DNA of 34,406 nt, taken from the NCBI GenBank assembly GCA_025464645.1, contig JAODGF010000005.1, positions 1-34,406 on the forward strand, given 5' to 3'. Numbering within the stretch: position 1 is the stretch's first letter; every line of letters begins with the position of its first letter. Below, one piece after another: positions 1,182 through 9,026 of the stretch. Made by a program: the position numbers and the translations under genes. The notes under the pieces are model-generated. The model had not been told where the DNA came from, searched no databases, and saw only the letters and a list, made by a program, of their open reading frames with translations. Source of the stretch: Methanosarcinales archaeon (GTDB lineage: Archaea > Halobacteriota > Syntropharchaeia > Alkanophagales > Methanospirareceae).

Positions 1182-2210
1182 TTATGAAAAAACAACCTGA
1201 GCTAACTTAAAAGGGTCCGAAGAGATAACAGAAGCCGCATAAAGTTCCATAGCTCCTATATCAGAATTTCTATCCTCTAACGAACCCCTATCCACAAGCC
1301 TGGCGATATGATAATCTTCTAACTGAAATATAGCTAAGTTGAATGATTGCACACCTATATTGAAATAGCTTCTCAATAATTTGTAAATCGTATCAGCCAT
1401 TTCATCGCTTTTCCTCGCTTTGCTGATAACAAAAATCTCCTTCTCTTTTACCGGCGTCAAATAAAACAAAATTCTTTCGCCTTTATTCTCTTTCGCAAGT
1501 CCTAAACCCTCATGAACTCTGTACAAATCCTCAATATAGGAAGCGTTAAATTCTCTTTTATAATTTGCTGTGACTTTTTCTAAAACTTCTAATTTACCAT
1601 ATCTCGTCCTCGAAGCTGTTAATTGTATATGCCCGTGAATAATCGAAGCTCCACTCCTCCAGAGGCAATTCCAGAGGAAGAACTTCTGCATCTTCTTTTC
1701 TTCTATTTTGGAGACCTCTTCAAACCAGCGTTCCCCGGTTCTTAAGTAATCCTCTACGCATTCCTTTTTTATCTCCAGAGGGTTGTGTTCCTTGAAAATT
1801 ACCAGGCTATGGAAGGAATCATACTTTGCTATGTTGCTTCCCGTGATACAATATTCTCCCTTCACTCTGCCAAACACGTCTGCTGGTGTTTGCCATTCGG
1901 GATTACAAAAAAGACAATTCTCTTTCTTCTTTAGCTCCTCTAACCCAATCGCTGATTTCGCTTCGATTGGTCTATCAGTCCTTAACATGTTAAATAAGCT
2001 GTGCTCGCCGGTAAACTTGTTTTTTATAGACACTATTTGCTGTTTTTCCACTCGCTCAAGAGACCCAAACCTCTTTTTTACCCAGTTCTCCATCTCCACG
2101 GGAATTTTTAGACTGCCCGTGGAAATTTCGAGTGAATAAAAGCGATTGAATAACTTCCTGGAATCTCTTGAAAGGTGTTCAACCCCTTTGTCGAGCTCCG
2201 TTATTTTCAT
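1182..2210 (-). CDS. GalT/HIT-superfamily nucleotidyltransferase-like protein (galactose-1-P uridylyltransferase / ADP-glucose phosphorylase-like)
   Basis: 342-aa ORF. It has a 'CLFC' Cys pair, then 'NIAKYDSFHSLVIFKEH', then 'RSGASIIHGHIQL' (His-x-His-x-Gln), in the order typical of GalT-family enzymes. It is divergent from the glucan operon. Confidence 0.5.
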   Translation of the reverse strand: MKITELDKGVEHLSRDSRKLFNRFYSLEISTGSLKIPVEMENWVKKRFGSLERVEKQQIVSIKNKFTGEHSLFNMLRTDRPIEAKSAIGLEELKKKENCLFCNPEWQTPADVFGRVKGEYCITGSNIAKYDSFHSLVIFKEHNPLEIKKECVEDYLRTGERWFEEVSKIEEKKMQKFFLWNCLWRSGASIIHGHIQLTASRTRYGKLEVLEKVTANYKREFNASYIEDLYRVHEGLGLAKENKGERILFYLTPVKEKEIFVISKARKSDEMADTIYKLLRSYFNIGVQSFNLAIFQLEDYHIARLVDRGSLEDRNSDIGAMELYAASVISSDPFKLAQVVFS

Positions 2211-2304: not shown

Positions 2305-3561
2305 ATGAGAATAGGCTATTTCGTTTGGGAATATCCGCCGAGAATAATCGGCGGCTTGGGAACTTATGCAGAGAATATTTGCCCGGCGATACTGGACTTA
2401 GGACACGACATCTCCGTGTTTACGATGAACGACGGAACGCTAAAAACAAGAGAGATATTAAAAGGCATTGATGTCAACAGACCGATGCTCGCAGATGGAA
2501 GCGGCATACTTCCTATATTCCTGACGGAAGACCTGAGAAGGTGGGGCACGGGAATAAAATTCTTCAATGACGTGCTTATATACAACATCCTCAGCGCTAC
2601 TAAATTCGTTAACGAACTCATAAAAAAAGAAGGTTATCACTTCGATATAATCTGCGCACATGACTGGTTGAGCGCGATGGCAGGGATAATGATAAAGCAA
2701 GAGACAGGTTTACCATTTGTGTTCCATCTTCATTCAACCGAATGGGGTCGTTCGCTTGACGGTGGCTCAGAGACGGTGCTTCATATTGAGAAGACCGCGG
2801 CTGATGTTGCTGATAGGATAATAACAGTAAGCTACCCGATGGAAGAGGACCTCATAAGGCATGGCTTCGAGCCCGATAAAATAAAAGTCTGCTGGAATGG
2901 CATTCGTGTGGATAAATACGACCCGAATAGGCTTGCGACTGAGGATATTATGCGATTACGGAGCAGATATGGAATTGGACCCGAAGAGAGGATGATACTG
3001 TTTGTTGGTAGATTGACTGCGGTAAAAGGTGTCGTGAACCTGGTGAAAGCAATGTCCACGGTTATAAGCAAGCATCCCGAGTCAAAGCTGGTAATTCTTG
3101 GCAAAGGTGAGTTAGAGCGGACTGTTTCAGACCTGATAAACAGATTGGACGTAGGAGAAAAAGTGAAGACGAGATTTGAATTTGTATCCGAAGAGGAAAG
3201 GATATTGCATTACGGCGCTTGTGATATATTTGTTGCTCCTTCAGTGTACGAGCCCTTTGGTATCATTGCCTTAGAGGCGATGGCGATGGAGAAGCCAGTT
3301 GTAGTTGGTGCCAGAGGTATCAGTGGGTTCCGAGATTTTGTTATCCCTTCAGGGCATGACCAGACAGGCGTTCATGTTGATGGCAGTAATTCCGCAGATA
3401 TAGCATGGGGAATAAATTCTCTACTTGAGGACATAGAAGGAGCGCGAGAAATGGGTAAAAGAGGTAGAAGACGGGTGAAAAAGTACTTCACCTGGGATAA
3501 AATTGCAGAATATACCATTGCGATATATGAGGATGTCATAAAGGAGGTGGGGAAGAAATAG
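2305..3561 (+). CDS. GT-B glycosyltransferase, glycogen/alpha-glucan synthase-like (paralogue 1, motifs intact)
   Basis: 418-aa ORF with 'WEYPPRIIGGLGT', 'AHDW', 'HLHSTEWGRS', 'FVGRLTAVKG' and 'EPFGIIALEAMA' (E-x7-E). Confidence 0.75.
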   Translation: MRIGYFVWEYPPRIIGGLGTYAENICPAILDLGHDISVFTMNDGTLKTREILKGIDVNRPMLADGSGILPIFLTEDLRRWGTGIKFFNDVLIYNILSATKFVNELIKKEGYHFDIICAHDWLSAMAGIMIKQETGLPFVFHLHSTEWGRSLDGGSETVLHIEKTAADVADRIITVSYPMEEDLIRHGFEPDKIKVCWNGIRVDKYDPNRLATEDIMRLRSRYGIGPEERMILFVGRLTAVKGVVNLVKAMSTVISKHPESKLVILGKGELERTVSDLINRLDVGEKVKTRFEFVSEEERILHYGACDIFVAPSVYEPFGIIALEAMAMEKPVVVGARGISGFRDFVIPSGHDQTGVHVDGSNSADIAWGINSLLEDIEGAREMGKRGRRRVKKYFTWDKIAEYTIAIYEDVIKEVGKK

Positions 3562-3564
3562 GGG

Positions 3565-4830
3565 ATGCGAATAGGCATTTTCGTAGGAGAATACCCGCCG
3601 AGGATAATCCGCGGCATAGGAACTTGTGCAGAGAATGTATGTCAGGCAATGATAAACGCAGGGCATGATGTCTCTGTGTTTACGATGAATGACGGAACGC
3701 TAAAAACAAGAGAAGTATTAAAAGGAATTGATGTCAACAGACCGATGCTCGTGGACGGAAGCAACATACTTCCCCAGGTGTTAGCCAAGGAAGATCTGGG
3801 AAGATCAGGCACGGGAATTAGATTCTTCAACGATGTAATTATGTACAACATTCTCAGCGTCACTAAATTCGTTAACCAGCTCATAAAAAAAGAAGGTTAT
3901 AAGTTTGATATAATCTGTGCATACGACTGGAGAAGTGCGATCGCAGGGATAATGATAAAGCAAGAGACGGGTTTACCTTTTATCTTTCATCTTCAATCAA
4001 CCGAAGGAAGTCGTTCCATGGGCGGAGGTTCTGCGATTATTCGTCATATTGAAGAAACCGCTGCTGCGGTTGCAGACCGTGTAATAACAGTATGCTATCC
4101 AATGCAGGAGTATCTGACAATGCATGGCTTTGATGCGACAAAGATAAATGTCTGCTGGAATGGCGTCAATTTAGATAAATATGATCCAAAGAAGGTTAAG
4201 GAAGATGAGATTCAAGAGTTAAGGAGCAGATACGGGATTGGACCGAGAGAGAAGATGGTGCTTTTTGTAGGTGGATTAGCTACGGTAAAGGGGATTATAA
4301 ACCTGGTGGAAGCGATGCACGAAGTTACAAGGAAACATCCAGAGGCAAAACTGGTTATTCTTGGCAAAGGAGAGTTAGAACGAGTAGTTTCCTATTTGAT
4401 AGAAGAACTGAACATCGGTGAAAAAGTGAAGACGAGGTTTGAGTTTGTAACCGAAGAGGAAAGGATATTACATTATGCCGCTTCCGATATAGTTGTTTGC
4501 CCTTCTCTATACGAGCCTTGCTGCGTCATTTCTTTAGAGGCGATGGCGATGGAGAAGCCAGTTATAGTTGGGTCTAAGGCTATTTGCAACTCATGTGACC
4601 AGGTAATTCCTTCGGGGCATGAACAAACAGGTGTTCACGTTGACGGTAGCAGTAAGCCAGATATAGCGTGGGGGATAAATACTTTGCTTGAAGACATGCA
4701 AAAAGCGAGAGAGATGGGTAAAAGGGGTAGAATGCGAGTGAAAAAATATTTCTCATGGGAGAAAGCAGCGGAACGCACAATTTCGATATACGAGGACGTG
4801 ATAAGGGAAGTGGAGGATGAGAAGAAATAA
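3565..4830 (+). CDS. GT-B glycosyltransferase paralogue 2 with degenerate catalytic-site motifs (candidate pseudoenzyme)
   Basis: 421-aa ORF that aligns end to end with 2305..3561. The conserved motifs are altered: 'IIRGIGT', 'AYDW', 'HLQSTEGSRS', 'FVGGLATVKG', 'EPCCVISLEAMA'. Confidence 0.7.
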   Translation: MRIGIFVGEYPPRIIRGIGTCAENVCQAMINAGHDVSVFTMNDGTLKTREVLKGIDVNRPMLVDGSNILPQVLAKEDLGRSGTGIRFFNDVIMYNILSVTKFVNQLIKKEGYKFDIICAYDWRSAIAGIMIKQETGLPFIFHLQSTEGSRSMGGGSAIIRHIEETAAAVADRVITVCYPMQEYLTMHGFDATKINVCWNGVNLDKYDPKKVKEDEIQELRSRYGIGPREKMVLFVGGLATVKGIINLVEAMHEVTRKHPEAKLVILGKGELERVVSYLIEELNIGEKVKTRFEFVTEEERILHYAASDIVVCPSLYEPCCVISLEAMAMEKPVIVGSKAICNSCDQVIPSGHEQTGVHVDGSSKPDIAWGINTLLEDMQKAREMGKRGRMRVKKYFSWEKAAERTISIYEDVIREVEDEKK

Positions 4831-6352
4831 AGCGAATGACAAAAAGAGCATCTGCCTTGCTTTTGAGGTGCATCAACCTTTCAGACTAAGTAAAGACTTC
4901 TTCTGGAAAAAGCAAATGTTCAAGAGGGACGTGAAGGTAGAAGACCTCTTCGATTATTACTTCTTTAACGAAAAAGACAGAGAAGTGTTTGAGAAAGTAG
5001 CGATAAAATGCTATCGTCCTACGAATGAAATAATACTAAGGCTGATAGACGAACACAACGATTTTAAAGCTGCTTACAGCGTCTCTGGTGTGTTTGTGGA
5101 GCAATGCGAGAGATATGGTTTTGGTAAGGATATACTGGAGGATTTCCGACAGCTTGCATCGAGCAGAAAAGTGGAGTTCTTAGACCAGACTTATTACCAT
5201 TCGCTGGTGGGTCTTTATGAGGAAGAAGGTGAATTCATCGAGCAGGTGCGGATGCATCGCGAATTAATGCGTGATTTAATTGGATATGAGCCATCCTTTT
5301 TTGAAAATACCGAACTGTTATATAACAACCGAATAGCGAAGCTCGTGGAGAACATGGGCTACCGGGGTATTTTCGCCGAGGGCGTGGAGAGAGTATTAAA
5401 CGGGAGGTCCCCAAACTACGTTTATGCGCCCTTAGGTTGCAAAAATTTAAAAGTCATGCTCAGAAACTACCCGTTAACGGATGACATAGGGTTTAGATTC
5501 TCACTAAAGAGCTGGAAAGAGTATCCTTTGAGCGCCTCTAAATACGCATCATGGCTCGATGCAACCCCGGGACAATGCATAAATATATTTTTAGACTACG
5601 AAACGTTTGGCGAGCATCACTGGGAAGATACGGGGATATTTGAGTTTTTAAGGGAGTTTCCCATGCATGTATTGAAATACAAGATGGAATTTTCAACACC
5701 TTCGGAGATAATAGAGAAGTATAAGCCGATAGGGGTAATAGACGTGCGGAATTTAGAGACGACATCATGGGCTGATGTGGAGAAAGACACTTCTTGTTTC
5801 ATCGGTAATACAATGCAGTGGGCATGTTACGAATATCTGAGATGGCTTGAACCTTACGTAAAAGAGTCAAGGAACGAAGAACTGCTGAAAATATGGCGAT
5901 ACCTTGGCATAAGTGACCACCTTTATTATATGTTCACGGTAGGCGGCGCATCAGGTGACGTGCACAGTTATTTTTCCCATTTCGAGAAGCCCTACGATGC
6001 CTTTGTCGCTTTGTTCTCTGTCATTCACGATTTTGATGCCCGCTTAAGAGCAAAGATAAAAAAAGCGGATTATCCTTTCGTCTTTCGCGATGGGACAAAG
6101 GTATGGAGTTTGAAGGGACTATGTGAATATCTAAAGAGAAAGCCGGGGGATGAAATGGATGAAGCTATAATGGGATATGTGGAAAGAGGCGATTTTGAGC
6201 GCTGGATAAGGGAAAGTGTAGGAGAAGAGGAGATAGCGAAAGAAGTAGGGAATTTGAGTTCGAGCATGGAAAGGCATGAATATGCTGCGGGTGTGTTACG
6301 GGAAAGGATATGTGAGATTGTTTCCAATAGTTTCTATAATATAAATCCTTAA
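4817..6352 (+). CDS. Glycoside hydrolase family 57 (alpha-amylase/AmyC-like)
   Basis: 511-aa ORF with N-terminal 'CLAFEVHQPFRL', then 'FENTELLYNN' and 'DYETFGEHHWE', which are GH57-like conserved regions. The start overlaps the upstream stop by 14 nt. Confidence 0.7.
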   Translation: MRRNKANDKKSICLAFEVHQPFRLSKDFFWKKQMFKRDVKVEDLFDYYFFNEKDREVFEKVAIKCYRPTNEIILRLIDEHNDFKAAYSVSGVFVEQCERYGFGKDILEDFRQLASSRKVEFLDQTYYHSLVGLYEEEGEFIEQVRMHRELMRDLIGYEPSFFENTELLYNNRIAKLVENMGYRGIFAEGVERVLNGRSPNYVYAPLGCKNLKVMLRNYPLTDDIGFRFSLKSWKEYPLSASKYASWLDATPGQCINIFLDYETFGEHHWEDTGIFEFLREFPMHVLKYKMEFSTPSEIIEKYKPIGVIDVRNLETTSWADVEKDTSCFIGNTMQWACYEYLRWLEPYVKESRNEELLKIWRYLGISDHLYYMFTVGGASGDVHSYFSHFEKPYDAFVALFSVIHDFDARLRAKIKKADYPFVFRDGTKVWSLKGLCEYLKRKPGDEMDEAIMGYVERGDFERWIRESVGEEEIAKEVGNLSSSMERHEYAAGVLRERICEIVSNSFYNINP

Positions 6353-6369: not shown

Positions 6370-6567
6370 ATGATAGAAGAAATAGGAACGGCTGCCGGTG
6401 AGATATGGAATTTGTTGAATGAAAAAGGTGAGCTAAGCATAACCGGAGTGGTAAAAGAGATAAATGCCCCGCAAAGCACCGCGTACATGGGTCTTGGATG
6501 GCTTGCAAGGGAGAATAAGCTGGAATTCGTAAAAAAGAGCAGAGGAGTTCTCGTTAAGCTGAGGTGA
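6370..6567 (+). CDS. Small winged-helix protein (DUF2582-like)
   Basis: 65-aa ORF. 'IGTAAGEIWNLLNEKGELSITGVVKEINAPQSTAYMGLGWLARENKLEF' resembles the DUF2582 wHTH family. A GGAG lies 6-9 nt upstream of the ATG. The stop overlaps the next gene's GTG (GTGA). Confidence 0.5.
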   Translation: MIEEIGTAAGEIWNLLNEKGELSITGVVKEINAPQSTAYMGLGWLARENKLEFVKKSRGVLVKLR

Positions 6568-7838
6568 GAGAACCGGAGAGACAGCAAGTGCAAAATCGCA
6601 TATTGACGCTTTCGTGGGAATATCCCCCGTATAAGATAGGTGGGATTGCAGAGCACGTTTACGAGCTGTCAAAGGCATTGACGAGAAAGGGGCGGGAGGT
6701 GCACGTGGTTACCTTAGGAACTTTCCCTTATGAGGAAAATGAAGGCGTGCATTTACATCGGATAGCAATTGATGCCTCAAAGCCTGATTTTATAACACGT
6801 ATGAATGAAGCGATGAAGGAAATCGGAGCTTCGATTATCGAATCCTCTAACACCAATATAGATATAGTCCATGCGCATGACTGGATGGTTGGTAGCGCTG
6901 CGATAGCACTGGCATCCAGATACAAAAAGCCGCTTGTAGCAACGATACACAGTACTGAATTTGGAAGGTCACGAGGAATAAATGAAGAATACCAGATGAG
7001 AATACATGAGGCTGAGGAACGGCTCGTAAGGTCATCAGACCATGTAATCGTGTGCAGCGAGAGCATGAAGAGAGAGATACAAGGCTTGTTTGGTGTTACA
7101 GAAAAAATTTCCGTTATTCCAAACGGGATAGATACATCTAAATTCGATTCCTTGGTTGATCGAGATGCAATAAAAGAAAAATTTTGTAGTCAGAGAAGTT
7201 CAAAGCTCATATTATTTCTCGGCAGGCTCGTTTATCAAAAGGGTGTGAACGTTTTGATAGGGGCGTTGCCAATAATCTTGGCACGATATTCAAAAAAGGA
7301 AGTGAAGCTTGTGATTGTAGGGGAAGGACCAATGAGAAAGCAACTGGAGATGGACGCTGCTTATTTAGGTGTATCAAAACACATTGTTTTTACTGGATTC
7401 CTTGATGACCACGAGGTTAGAAGTTTATTAAAATCCGCAGATGTGGTTGTTGTGCCTTCCCTTTATGAGCCTTTTGGAATAGTCGCTTTAGAGGCGATGG
7501 CGGCTAAGACGCCAGTGGTTGTGTCCGATATTGATGGTCTTTCTGAACTAATAAGTAAAGGAGAAGGCATAAAAGTACCACCTAACAGCTCTGAAAGACT
7601 TGCAGCCTCCATTATAAAAGTTCTGTCAGATACAGAAGCCAGTAAAAAAAGAGTAGAAGGAATAGTAGAAAAGGGCTTCAAAAAAGCTCTCTCTTTAAAT
7701 TGGGATATGATTACAGCGGCTACTATGGATGTTTATGCAAAGGTTTTAGCCACGACTCCCTCACCTGTGGAAGAAAAAGATATTGAAATAGAAACAGGAA
7801 CAGAGAAAGGGTGGCTATGGAAATATTCGTATTCGTGA
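6564..7838 (+). CDS. GT-B glycosyltransferase, glycogen/alpha-glucan synthase-like (paralogue 3, motifs intact)
   Basis: 424-aa ORF with 'WEYPPYKIGGIAEH', 'AHDW', 'TIHSTEFGRS', 'FLGRLVYQKGV' and 'EPFGIVALEAMA'. The start is GTG at 6564. An alternative in-frame GTG at 6588 follows a GGAGAG. Confidence 0.75.
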   Translation: MREPERQQVQNRILTLSWEYPPYKIGGIAEHVYELSKALTRKGREVHVVTLGTFPYEENEGVHLHRIAIDASKPDFITRMNEAMKEIGASIIESSNTNIDIVHAHDWMVGSAAIALASRYKKPLVATIHSTEFGRSRGINEEYQMRIHEAEERLVRSSDHVIVCSESMKREIQGLFGVTEKISVIPNGIDTSKFDSLVDRDAIKEKFCSQRSSKLILFLGRLVYQKGVNVLIGALPIILARYSKKEVKLVIVGEGPMRKQLEMDAAYLGVSKHIVFTGFLDDHEVRSLLKSADVVVVPSLYEPFGIVALEAMAAKTPVVVSDIDGLSELISKGEGIKVPPNSSERLAASIIKVLSDTEASKKRVEGIVEKGFKKALSLNWDMITAATMDVYAKVLATTPSPVEEKDIEIETGTEKGWLWKYSYS

Positions 7839-7910: not shown

Positions 7911-9026
7911 TCATCGCTTAAAATACTTTTCCACACCCTTATAATCAAACTCCCCCTTTTCTTCAAGCACGTTCCGTATGAAGTTAAACAGCTTCGTCCT
8001 CGTTTCCAATCCGATATTTGGATACCATACGGGCGAAGCAACTACGAGCCCGCGGAATGCATAAAACGGCTGTATCACCTCTAACAATTCATAATCCCCT
8101 GTTCTTCCAAGATACACCTCGAAAAACAAGTCATACAACCGCTTGAAATCACTATCAACCTCTTTCCCCTCTGTTTTGAGCAGTCCGAAAAACAGATAGT
8201 TTATCGTCATTGAGGATACATCGTCAGCGGCTTCTCCCCATTCCCCTCTACTCCGGTCAAGCACCGTAAAATCTGTTCCTTTTCTGAACATCACATTCCA
8301 GGGATGGAAATCACCATGAACCATACACAACCTTTTTGTTCTCTCTTTCAGCTCCCATCTCCAGTCTATGCTAAGCTTCTCTATATTCTTCAGCTCTTCA
8401 CTCGTTATGAGCTCGTTTCGTGCTGGATAACTGTCTGTGAGCCCGAATATGCATTCGCTATGCCCCACTAACTCCCTTATCCTCCGTATATAAAGCCCTG
8501 CATCGTCTTTCTTGACAGCATGTATATCAGCTAAATAGGAAGCGAGCACGGATGCCCTTTCCTCATCTTCTTTCCTTAATTCCCCCCATTCCTTTAATCT
8601 GTTCAGGTCCTCAACGTATTCCTTCCCTTCCACTTTATCGCATACAATGAAATATTCTTCCGCATCACTTGCTGACTCCATCCTGCCGTCCTTCGTAAAG
8701 AAACCGACGTCATGGGATTTTACGTGTTTCGGTAGCTTATTGAATGCATGGTGTTGCCATATCATTATTTGCGCACGGTCTGAGAAATGGTCATGCCCAA
8801 ATCCATTCCCACGCATAGAGGAGATAACTAACTCTTTTATTTCCCCTTCCTCAGTCTCAAACTCCACGAAATAAGGCTTGCCATACCCAAACCCTTTTAT
8901 TTCTTCTTCAGGCTTTAGCTTCGACTCCAATCCTAATTCCTTTACGCTTAGTATTCGCAAAGGTATTTCGAACTTGCTCTCTAAATATTCTTTTATTTTC
9001 TCTTTCATATCTTCCCCCTTCTGCAA
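7911..9026 (-). CDS. Phosphotransferase-family kinase (APH/ChoK/CotS-like fold)
   Basis: 371-aa ORF with 'LCMVHGDFHPWNVMF' (HGDxxxxN catalytic loop) and 'VLDRSRGEWGEAADDVS' (DxxxG-type metal loop). A likelier start is the ATG at 9008, which has a purine-rich SD. Confidence 0.6.
   Translation of the reverse strand: MQKGEDMKEKIKEYLESKFEIPLRILSVKELGLESKLKPEEEIKGFGYGKPYFVEFETEEGEIKELVISSMRGNGFGHDHFSDRAQIMIWQHHAFNKLPKHVKSHDVGFFTKDGRMESASDAEEYFIVCDKVEGKEYVEDLNRLKEWGELRKEDEERASVLASYLADIHAVKKDDAGLYIRRIRELVGHSECIFGLTDSYPARNELITSEELKNIEKLSIDWRWELKERTKRLCMVHGDFHPWNVMFRKGTDFTVLDRSRGEWGEAADDVSSMTINYLFFGLLKTEGKEVDSDFKRLYDLFFEVYLGRTGDYELLEVIQPFYAFRGLVVASPVWYPNIGLETRTKLFNFIRNVLEEKGEFDYKGVEKYFKR

What the first reader, a model, noticed from the sequence alone, without database searches (positions are those of the whole stretch)
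3565..4830. Tandem glycogen-synthase-like paralogue that keeps its full-length ORF but has lost conserved active-site residues (pseudoenzyme candidate)
The copy at 3565..4830 is collinear and equal in length with 2305..3561, with a 3-nt spacer between them. Residues conserved in both other paralogues in this cluster, and in GT-B glycogen/starch-synthase-type enzymes, are replaced:
- Nucleotide-sugar loop 'GG(L/I)': G16>R (3610..3612).
- 'AHDW' > 'AYDW' (Y120, 3922..3924).
- 'HLHSTE'/'TIHSTE' > 'HLQSTE' (Q144, 3994..3996).
- 'GRLxxxKG' > 'GGLATVKG' (G237, 4273..4275).
- 'EPFG' > 'EPCC' (4519..4524).
- The following 'GARGISGFRDF' > 'GSKAICNSCDQ', which adds a cluster of Cys residues.

There are no frameshifts or stops, and the stop overlaps the GH57 start by 14 nt, so the gene is almost certainly translated. 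This suggests a non-catalytic regulatory or scaffolding partner of the active synthase, or a neofunctionalised enzyme.
Basis: partly seen in the sequence, partly recalled or inferred. Interest (0 to 1): 0.6.

Follow-up and report, generated by a model that had tools for sequence, protein, structure and literature searches.

The report
Cysteine-rich dead glycogen-synthase partner in ANME-1
A methane-oxidising archaeon (ANME-1) keeps, directly behind its intact glycogen-synthase-like gene, an old and well-preserved copy that has lost the sugar-donor-binding residues and instead carries five cysteines that never vary among the 26 compared copies, so it is probably a non-catalytic, metal- or redox-dependent partner of the enzyme rather than a second enzyme.

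Summary
ORF 3565-4830 (P2, 421 aa) is 72% identical to the upstream synthase 2305-3561 (P1), and all listed substitutions are present.

P2 is not a local, recent duplicate. It belongs to a monophyletic clade of at least 26 distinct proteins. The clade's signature occurs in 12 of 66 genomes of one ANME-1 family and in none of the 13 other genomes of the class.

In this clade the residues equivalent to the ADP-glucose contacts of E. coli GlgA (H161, R300, K305, E377, G380) are lost in a mosaic pattern. In the 91 intact relatives they are 100% conserved. Five clade-specific cysteines (C177, C312, C319, C341, C344) and Tyr183 are invariant among the 26 aligned clade members.

dN/dS is about 0.15-0.26, roughly twice that of the neighbouring intact gene, so the gene is under purifying selection. 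In 8 of 8 loci where the upstream gene could be read, the gene lies -4 to +3 nt behind an intact synthase.

My best reading is a non-catalytic partner subunit whose former donor pocket now holds a cysteine (metal or redox) centre. The partnership and the metal are inferred, not shown. No paper describing this clade was found.

The parts
2305..3561 (+). P1: intact A-type GT4/GT5-like alpha-glucan (glycogen) synthase, the presumed catalytic partner
   Evidence: Pfam Glycos_transf_1, Glyco_transf_4 and Glyco_transf_5. All donor-site residues are retained. Best solved relatives are GlgM 6tvp and P. abyssi GS 3fro.
3544..3550 (+). Shine-Dalgarno-like GGAGGTG inside the 3' end of P1, 14 nt before the P2 start codon
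   Evidence: Sequence read. Similar G-rich motifs precede the Cys-clade gene in most other loci.
3565..4830 (+). P2: the catalytically degenerate, cysteine-rich paralogue (the finding)
   Evidence: AF2 model: GT-B fold, mean pLDDT 90.8. Foldseek hits to MshA, GlgM, PaGS and SPS at TM 0.75-0.80.
3610..3612 (+). R16, replacing the first Gly of the N-terminal GG loop (E. coli G17 equivalent)
   Evidence: Gly in 90/91 intact relatives. In the clade: S17, G6, R1, N1, A1.
3994..3996 (+). Q144, replacing the His equivalent to E. coli GlgA H161 / GlgM H109
   Evidence: Mapping (chain index = residue + 14) and PMC7137382. His in 91/91 intact relatives. In the clade: H14, N6, Q5, Y1.
4093..4095 (+). C177, invariant in the clade. 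Replaces an invariant Ser next to the Val equivalent to E. coli V211.
4111..4113 (+). Y183, invariant in the clade. Replaces an Asp that is invariant in intact relatives.
4273..4275 (+). G237, replacing the Arg equivalent to E. coli R300
   Evidence: Arg in 91/91 intact relatives and in only 4/26 clade members.
4498..4500 (+). C312 at the end of C-domain strand beta4. Invariant in the 26 aligned members; Ser in one further genome (G061).
4519..4524 (+). C319 (invariant in the clade; the E. coli C379 position) and C320 (replaces the Gly equivalent to E. coli G380, lost in 26/26 clade members)
4585..4596 (+). C341-N-S-C344: an invariant CxxC that replaces the S-G-F-R donor loop (E. coli G-G-L-A)
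4817..6352 (+). GH57 glucan-active enzyme. Its start overlaps the P2 stop by 14 nt.
   Evidence: Pfam PF03065, E = 6.6e-81. GH57 genes lie near the pair in L026 and L029 but not in L024/L025.
6564..7838 (+). P3: a third, distant (33% identical), intact GT4 glycosyltransferase in the cluster
1182..2210 (-). Conserved ~345-aa protein with no family hit, transcribed divergently from P1. A gene of the same size, also without a family hit, occupies this position in other loci.
   Evidence: Synteny in L021, L026, L028 and L029.

Best explanation
P2 belongs to an ANME-1-specific clade of catalytically degenerate paralogues of the GT4/GT5-like alpha-glucan (glycogen) synthase.

Inferred history: the ancestor had an A-B tandem of two intact synthases. 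In one lineage the downstream copy had its NDP-glucose pocket rebuilt: Ser>Cys177, Asp>Tyr183, Ala>Cys312, Phe>Cys319, Gly380-equivalent lost, and S-G-F-R > C-x-[S/T]-C. After that, the classical donor-binding residues (the His, Arg, Lys, Glu and GG-loop Gly) drifted freely.

Shown here: the protein keeps the GT-B fold, is held under purifying selection, and is always encoded -4 to +3 nt behind an intact A-type synthase.

Inferred mechanism: P2 no longer transfers glucose from a nucleotide sugar. It is made in step with the intact synthase and assembles with it as a non-catalytic subunit. The cysteine constellation sits where ADP-glucose used to bind and holds either a metal centre (Zn or Fe-S) or a redox-active dithiol. 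That centre would stabilise the subunit or make glycogen synthesis respond to redox or metal status.
For: - Losses. All six key donor-site positions are conserved in 90-91 of 91 intact relatives. Every one of the 26 clade members lacks at least three of them, and different members lack different ones. These positions are ADP-glucose contacts in E. coli and A. tumefaciens GS and in GlgM (PMC7137382). They were mapped through the alignments.
- Gains. C177, C312, C319, C341, C344 and Y183 are 100% invariant in the clade and differ from the intact consensus.
- Single origin. The clade is monophyletic with SH-aLRT 100, and 99 after 30 trait columns were removed. Its sister group is the intact B-type copies.
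- Selection. NG86 dN/dS is 0.15-0.26 for clade pairs against 0.05-0.18 (mostly 0.05-0.13) for the adjacent intact gene in the same genome pairs; dN is about 2x higher. The extra divergence is concentrated in the active-site segments.
- Coupling. In 8 of 8 loci where the upstream gene could be read, an intact synthase lies directly upstream with -4 to +3 nt spacing. This holds where GH57 is not adjacent (L024/L025). An SD-like motif lies inside the upstream gene.
- Fold. AF2 gives pLDDT 90.8 and pTM 0.88 with a GT-B fold. Confidence dips in the cysteine-bearing loops: 75 at 311-320, 80 at 331-340 and 72 at 341-350.
- Distribution. A DNA signature of the four C-domain cysteines occurs in 12 of 66 genomes of one family (4 genera) and in 0 of 13 other genomes of the class, with 0 control hits.
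- Contrast with real decay. G017 has only fragments of a second copy.
Against: - There is no biochemical, expression or interaction evidence.
It was not measured.
- The cysteine spacing (Cx6C...Cx2C plus one N-domain Cys) matches no canonical Fe-S or Zn motif.
- C312 is Ser in one genome (G061).
- P2 keeps K242, E317, E325 and N199, so residual or altered catalysis cannot be excluded.
- The 81-100 helix segment is almost invariant in the intact A copies but is among the most relaxed segments in the clade. This argues against P2 using exactly the same surface as P1.
- Only 5 of 28 high-quality genomes of the class carry the gene, so it is accessory.
Confidence: 0.55

Rival explanations
1. P2 is a neofunctionalised but still catalytic enzyme. 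The remodelled, cysteine-lined pocket would bind a different donor (for example a sugar phosphate or a non-nucleotide donor) or carry out a different reaction on glucan.
For: The gene is under purifying selection and the GT-B fold is intact. The second Glu of E-x7-E (E325) is invariant, and E317 is kept in 21 of 26 members. The newly invariant residues sit in the former active site.
Against: The remaining classical catalytic residues vary within the clade in a mosaic: Arg kept in 4/26, Lys in 10/26, His in 14/26, and Glu>Gly in 5/26. That is hard to reconcile with one conserved catalytic mechanism using this pocket. No GT-B enzyme using a cysteine cluster for catalysis came up in the literature searches.
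Confidence: 0.17
2. P2 is a stand-alone non-catalytic protein that does not form a complex with P1. It could be a glucan-binding or sensor protein, or a protein primer that offers the invariant Tyr183 for glucosylation, by analogy with glycogenin. In that case the gene adjacency reflects only co-regulation.
For: The N-terminal (acceptor) domain is conserved in the clade. Tyr183 is clade-specific and invariant. The A-type 81-100 segment is relaxed in the clade. The gene is accessory.
Against: Spacing of -4 to +3 nt is maintained in 8 of 8 loci across deep divergence (saturated dS). That is typical of translationally coupled subunits. There is no evidence for Tyr glucosylation.
Confidence: 0.2
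3. P2 is a decaying duplicate, a pseudogene in the making, that happens still to be open.
For: Several conserved active-site residues have been lost. For the closest pair (G000/G001), omega is 0.37.
Against: The clade has at least 26 distinct members in 4 genera, and all full-length members are open. dN/dS is 0.15-0.26 at dS of 0.25-1.9. Six clade-specific residues are invariant. Genuine decay in this family looks different: G017 has only fragments.
Confidence: 0.03

Closest known systems
Archaeal/bacterial GT-B alpha-glucan synthases: Pyrococcus abyssi glycogen synthase (PDB 2bis/3fro, GT5) and mycobacterial GlgM (PDB 6tvp, GT4)
   Same: Same GT-B fold and domain order (Foldseek TM 0.72-0.75; phmmer of P1 gives E = 9e-35 to GlgM and 2e-26 to PaGS). 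The E-x7-E motif and the Lys of GRLxxxKG are kept in P2.
   Different: P2 lacks the equivalents of H161, R300 and G380 and the first GG-loop Gly. Its donor loop S-G-F-R is replaced by C-N-S-C. Neither P1 nor P2 reaches the NCBIfam glgA_Coryne cut-off (201 and 165 bits against 302). Even the intact enzymes of this archaeal group are uncharacterised. PMC11046441 only speculates that such GT4 genes next to GH57 are glycogen synthases.
Arabidopsis STARCH SYNTHASE 5 (SS5), an enzymatically inactive homologue of SS4
   Same: SS5 is an inactive paralogue of an alpha-glucan synthase that is retained and contributes to glucan synthesis (granule initiation). It is described as an 'enzymatically inactive homolog of SS4' in bioRxiv 10.64898/2026.08.24.746836.
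   Different: From my own knowledge, SS5 lacks part of the C-terminal GT1 subdomain, whereas P2 keeps both Rossmann domains. No cysteine cluster is reported for SS5. SS5 is eukaryotic and not operon-coupled. Its origin is independent of P2's.
GtfB (Gtf2) of the streptococcal GtfA-GtfB O-GlcNAc transferase complex
   Same: From my own knowledge (not tested here): GtfB is a GT-B-fold paralogue without catalytic activity. It is encoded next to the active GtfA and forms a complex that is needed for full activity.
   Different: GtfB belongs to a different GT family and acts on a different substrate (serine-rich adhesins). It is bacterial and has no cysteine constellation. Complex formation by P1 and P2 has not been shown.
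E. coli glycogen synthase GlgA (GT5)
   Same: GlgA carries Cys at the position of P2 C319 (E377-P-C379-G380). This was verified on the K-12 sequence.
   Different: E. coli GlgA keeps G380, R300, K305, H161 and KTGGL, and it has none of the other four clade-specific cysteines.

Membership tests
GT-B retaining glycosyltransferase, GT4/GT5 glycogen-synthase-like (fold membership) | Two Rossmann-like domains (GT-B fold); Pfam Glyco_transf_4 plus Glycos_transf_1 | tested here: met
   Pfam PF00534 at 1.5e-31 and PF13439 at 4.7e-18. AF2 pLDDT 90.8. Foldseek hits to MshA, GlgM, PaGS and SPS at TM 0.75-0.80.
Catalytically competent NDP-glucose alpha-glucan synthase | N-terminal GG loop (E. coli G17-G18) | tested here: not met
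   P2 has R16-G17. The first Gly is present in 90/91 intact relatives.
Catalytically competent NDP-glucose alpha-glucan synthase | His equivalent to E. coli H161 / GlgM H109 (ADP-glucose contact) | tested here: not met
   P2 has Q144. His is present in 91/91 intact relatives.
Catalytically competent NDP-glucose alpha-glucan synthase | Arg and Lys of GRLxxxKG (E. coli R300, K305) | tested here: not met
   P2 has G237, so the Arg is lost, but K242 is kept. In the clade, Arg is present in 4/26 and Lys in 10/26.
Catalytically competent NDP-glucose alpha-glucan synthase | E-x7-E motif with the following Gly (E. coli E377, G380) | tested here: inconclusive
   E317 and E325 are present in P2, but the G380 equivalent is Cys (C320). 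That Gly is lost in 26/26 clade members.
Catalytically competent NDP-glucose alpha-glucan synthase | Glucosyl-transfer activity | not testable with these tools
   This needs a recombinant enzyme assay.
NCBIfam TIGR02149 glgA_Coryne (GlgM-type) | Score above the curated cut-off of 302.4 bits | tested here: not met
   P2 scores 164.6 bits, P1 201.1 and P3 168.9.
Pseudoenzyme (a retained, catalytically degenerate homologue of an enzyme) | Loss of residues that are essential and invariant in active homologues | tested here: met
   with residue roles taken from PMC7137382.
Pseudoenzyme (a retained, catalytically degenerate homologue of an enzyme) | Retention under purifying selection across lineages | tested here: met
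   dN/dS is 0.15-0.26. The clade is monophyletic with 26 members. It occurs in 4 genera.
Non-catalytic GT-B partner subunit (GtfB-like or SS5-like role) | Physical complex with, or functional modulation of, the active paralogue | not testable with these tools
   Only indirect evidence: -4 to +3 nt coupling to an intact synthase in 8 of 8 loci.
Cysteine-ligated metal (Zn or Fe-S) or redox-dithiol protein | Four or more conserved Cys, including a CxxC pair | tested here: met
   C177, C312, C319, C341 and C344 are invariant in 26/26 members. C341-x-x-C344 forms the CxxC pair.
Cysteine-ligated metal (Zn or Fe-S) or redox-dithiol protein | Match to a known cluster-binding motif or family | tested here: not met
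   Pfam and NCBIfam returned only glycosyltransferase families. By my reading, the Cx6C-x21-CxxC spacing is not a canonical ferredoxin, radical-SAM or zinc-ribbon motif.
Cysteine-ligated metal (Zn or Fe-S) or redox-dithiol protein | Cysteines clustered in space; metal content | not testable with these tools
   No model coordinates were returned. Clustering is inferred from the topology: the end of strand beta4, the N-cap of the following helix, and the loop after the adjacent strand beta5.

The most novel reading that the evidence does not exclude
The former nucleotide-sugar pocket of a GT-B glycosyltransferase has been converted into a cysteine-ligated metal centre, either an Fe-S cluster or Zn. 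This would make P2 a redox- or metal-sensing regulatory subunit that couples glycogen storage in ANME-1 to the cell's redox state. It would be the first metal-centre pseudo-glycosyltransferase and the first dedicated regulator of archaeal glycogen synthesis.
Probability: 0.3. Interest if true: 0.78.

Novelty: new variant of a known kind. Interest (0 to 1): 0.56.

Why it matters
How archaea regulate glycogen synthesis is essentially unknown; PMC11046441 calls the archaeal pathway and its regulation 'mainly unexplored'. ANME-1 archaea control a large part of marine methane oxidation and cannot be grown in pure culture.

This finding gives a concrete and easily cloned pair to work on: an intact synthase and a conserved dead paralogue whose donor pocket has been rebuilt around invariant cysteines. 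The pair makes two questions testable:
- whether carbon storage in these organisms is tied to redox or metal status;
- how a GT-B active site can be turned into a cofactor or sensor site.

It also adds a prokaryotic, operon-encoded case to the short list of pseudo-glycosyltransferases. It shows the usual route to such proteins: a tandem of two intact copies, then loss of catalysis in one of them.

Tried and rejected
- Recent local duplication. Rejected: P1 vs P2 dS is 0.96, P2 is closer to the B-type copies of other genera (75%) than to P1 (72%), and the clade is monophyletic.
- Pseudogene. Rejected on dN/dS and the invariant gained residues.
- Programmed read-through fusing P1 and P2. In the window they are in the same frame, separated by TAG GGG. 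Rejected: the stop codon (TAG or TAA), the spacing (-4, +2, +3 nt) and the frame are not conserved in other loci.
- Assuming the AHDW His is E. coli H161. This was my own first recollection. The GlgM numbering corrected it: H161 corresponds to the HLHSTE His, which is Q144 in P2.
- Artificial P1-P2 fusion for AF2 as a proxy for a heterodimer. Abandoned: MAFFT stacks all single-copy rows on the first half, only five paired rows exist, and the tool returns no PAE or coordinates.
- Profile search of 1.84 billion representatives for distant members. It found no further Cys-signature proteins, because clustering at 50% merges the clade with its intact relatives. It did reveal other, independent degenerate paralogues.
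- Literature searches on ANME-1 or Methanophagales with glycogen, and on pseudoenzyme GT-B. None describes this protein. The search for 'Cys379' found no relevant paper, so the E. coli sequence itself was read instead.
- The mafft --keeplength mapping of E. coli residue numbers was unreliable. Only the visible blocks were used.

Full report
**Observation.** The window is contig C101 of an 87%-complete archaeal MAG of 1.67 Mb. Source names on its closest protein relatives point to ANME-1 / Methanophagales. A third GT4 lies at 6564-7838. P1 and P2 are 72% identical and collinear. P2 has 10 cysteines against 4 in P1.

**What the replaced residues do.**
[quoted passage not shown] In E. coli numbering these are H161, V211, N246, R300, K305, E377, G380 and L381. 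In GlgM numbering they are H109, V146, N171, R207, K212, E289, G292 and I293.
- I mapped them with the phmmer alignment of P1 to 6tvp (chain index = residue + 14) and with the K-12 GlgA sequence read directly. In P1 they are H143, V175, N198, R236, K241, E316, G319 and I320. In P2 they are Q144, V176, N199, G237, K242, E317, C320 and V321.
- P2 has therefore lost the equivalents of H161, R300 and G380. It has also lost the first Gly of the GG loop (R16 = E. coli G17).
- The F>C change in EPFG is not a loss, because E. coli GlgA itself reads E377-P-C379-G380.

**P2 is one member of a conserved clade.**
- Among the 120 closest proteins in the 5.8-billion-protein collection, 28 rows carry the same signature. 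They are P2's own entry (P0001), one N-terminally truncated sequence, and 26 others from JGI, ENA, Logan and NCBI assemblies.
- In a maximum-likelihood tree rooted on P3, the 26 full-length sequences (P2 and 25 others) form one clade with SH-aLRT support of 100. Support is still 99 after I removed 30 columns that carry the trait.
- The sister group consists of six intact 'B-type' synthases. P1 sits in a separate intact 'A-type' clade of 50 sequences.
- Genomes such as G006 carry an A-B tandem in which both copies are intact. I infer that the cysteine-rich type arose from the downstream B copy of such a tandem.

**Losses are mosaic; gains are fixed.** Conservation of the donor-site positions:

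| Position (E. coli equivalent) | 91 intact relatives | 26 clade members |
|---|---|---|
| first GG-loop Gly (G17) | 90/91 | 6/26 |
| His (H161) | 91/91 | 14/26 |
| Arg (R300) | 91/91 | 4/26 |
| Lys (K305) | 91/91 | 10/26 |
| Glu (E377) | 91/91 | 21/26 |
| Gly (G380) | 91/91 | 0/26 |

Every clade member lacks at least three of these six positions. By contrast, six clade-specific residues are invariant in all 26 members:
- C177, where intact relatives have Ser (100%), next to the V211 equivalent;
- Y183, where intact relatives have Asp (100%);
- C312;
- C319;
- C341 and C344, which form a CxxC that replaces the S-G-F-R donor loop (E. coli G-G-L-A).

C197, two residues before the N246 equivalent, is conserved in both groups.

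My reading is that a founding remodelling of the donor pocket around cysteines was followed by relaxed selection on the old catalytic residues.

**Selection.**
- Pairwise Nei-Gojobori dN/dS among nine clade genes is 0.15-0.26. It is 0.37 for the nearly identical G000/G001 pair, which has few substitutions.
- The intact gene directly upstream gives mostly 0.05-0.13 (up to 0.18) in the same genome pairs. dN of the clade genes is about twice as high.
- The extra divergence is concentrated in residues 1-20, 81-100, 141-160, 241-260, 301-320 and 341-360. Five of these six segments hold donor-site positions; 81-100 does not.
- The gene is therefore functional, with a partly relaxed active site.
- Real decay in this family looks different: G017 keeps only fragments of a second copy.

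**Context.**
- In all eight loci where the upstream gene could be read (the window, G007 and six metagenomic or MAG contigs), the clade gene lies directly downstream of an intact A-type synthase. In G001 a synthase ORF cut off by the contig end occupies that position, and in G019 the contig begins only 72 nt before the clade gene.
- The spacing is -4 to +3 nt. In the window an SD-like GGAGGTG lies inside the end of the upstream gene.
- This holds in L024/L025, where GH57 is not adjacent.
- Stop codon and frame vary, so read-through fusion is not conserved.

**Distribution.** I used a DNA pattern that requires the four C-domain cysteine codons in register with conserved flanking codons. It hits 12 of 66 genomes of one family, in 4 of its 14 genera, and 0 of 13 genomes from the rest of the class. 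A control using the reversed pattern gave no hits. One genome has two copies, and one has Ser at position 312.

**Structure.**
- AlphaFold2 with a 99-sequence alignment gives a confident GT-B fold (pLDDT 90.8, pTM 0.88).
- The best structural matches are MshA, GlgM, P. abyssi GS and sucrose-phosphate synthase.
- C312 ends strand beta4 of the C-domain. C319 sits just before the following helix. C341 and C344 lie in the loop after the adjacent strand beta5. C177 follows the last N-domain strand, which faces the cleft.
- These are the elements that surround the nucleotide sugar in solved homologues. I therefore infer that the cysteines line the former donor pocket.
- No coordinates were returned, so the distances were not measured. 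Confidence dips in exactly these loops (pLDDT 72-80).

**Mechanism.**
- Most likely (confidence 0.55): P2 does not transfer glucose. It is made together with P1 and acts as a non-catalytic subunit whose pocket holds a cysteine-bound metal or a redox-active dithiol.
- Rivals: an altered catalytic activity (0.17), a stand-alone binder or Tyr183 primer protein (0.2), and a decaying gene (0.03).
- The closest functional analogues are Arabidopsis SS5, an inactive SS4 homologue, and, from my own knowledge, streptococcal GtfB.
- None of my literature searches found a description of this clade.
- Even the intact archaeal GT4-type enzymes next to GH57 are only speculated to be glycogen synthases (PMC11046441).

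**Limits.** There is no PAE or model coordinates, and no biochemistry. The earlier scan note e1-3771924 on the same window described the same gene order. No look-alike was noted on other DNA.

Noticed in passing
P0128, P0133, P0143; P0051 = G010 first copy, L008:1492-2757; P0089/P0093/P0095/P0102: Other lineages of this synthase family carry independent degenerate paralogues without the cysteine signature. Examples are GG>SD, GG>GE, EPFG>EPSG, and loss of GRL and KG. Loss of catalysis in one copy therefore seems to recur in these archaea.
   Followed up: partly
G017:C3:82616-83104 (L009:2761-3402): Only fragments of a second synthase copy (residues ~155-227 and ~340-413) lie just downstream of the intact gene. 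This is a truly decayed duplicate and contrasts with the maintained cysteine-rich clade.
   Followed up: no
window 1182-2210 (-): A 342-aa protein with no Pfam or NCBIfam hit is transcribed divergently from P1. A ~345-aa gene, likewise without a Pfam hit, occupies the same position in L021, L026, L028 and L029. It contains an HGHIQ motif reminiscent of GalT/HIT-type nucleotidyltransferases, so it may supply the sugar donor.
   Followed up: partly
window 7911-9026 (-): A 371-aa APH-fold phosphotransferase (Pfam PF01636, 9.8e-10) lies next to the glucan cluster. It has no convincing NCBIfam match. It could be a sugar kinase, but this was not tested.
   Followed up: no
window 3559-3567: P1 and P2 are in the same reading frame, separated only by TAG GGG. 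Stop codon, spacing and frame differ in other loci, so conserved read-through is unlikely.
   Followed up: yes
G041:C21:947-1047 and G041:C114:1238-1338; G061:C42:6779-6879: One genome carries two copies of the cysteine-rich paralogue. Another has Ser (AGC) instead of Cys at the position of C312.
   Followed up: no
G034:C21:1358-2608, G027:C284:9768-11018, G019:C102:1628-2884: Synthase homologues in related genomes contain a single in-frame TAG or TGA. These could be broken genes, sequencing errors or recoding; I did not examine them.
   Followed up: no
window 3805-3864 (P2 residues 81-100) and the same segment of P1: This helix segment is almost invariant in the intact A copies (mean pairwise difference 0.03), but it is among the most relaxed segments in the cysteine-rich clade (0.33). 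The conserved Trp at its start is Ser in the clade (18/26). Its function is unknown.
   Followed up: partly
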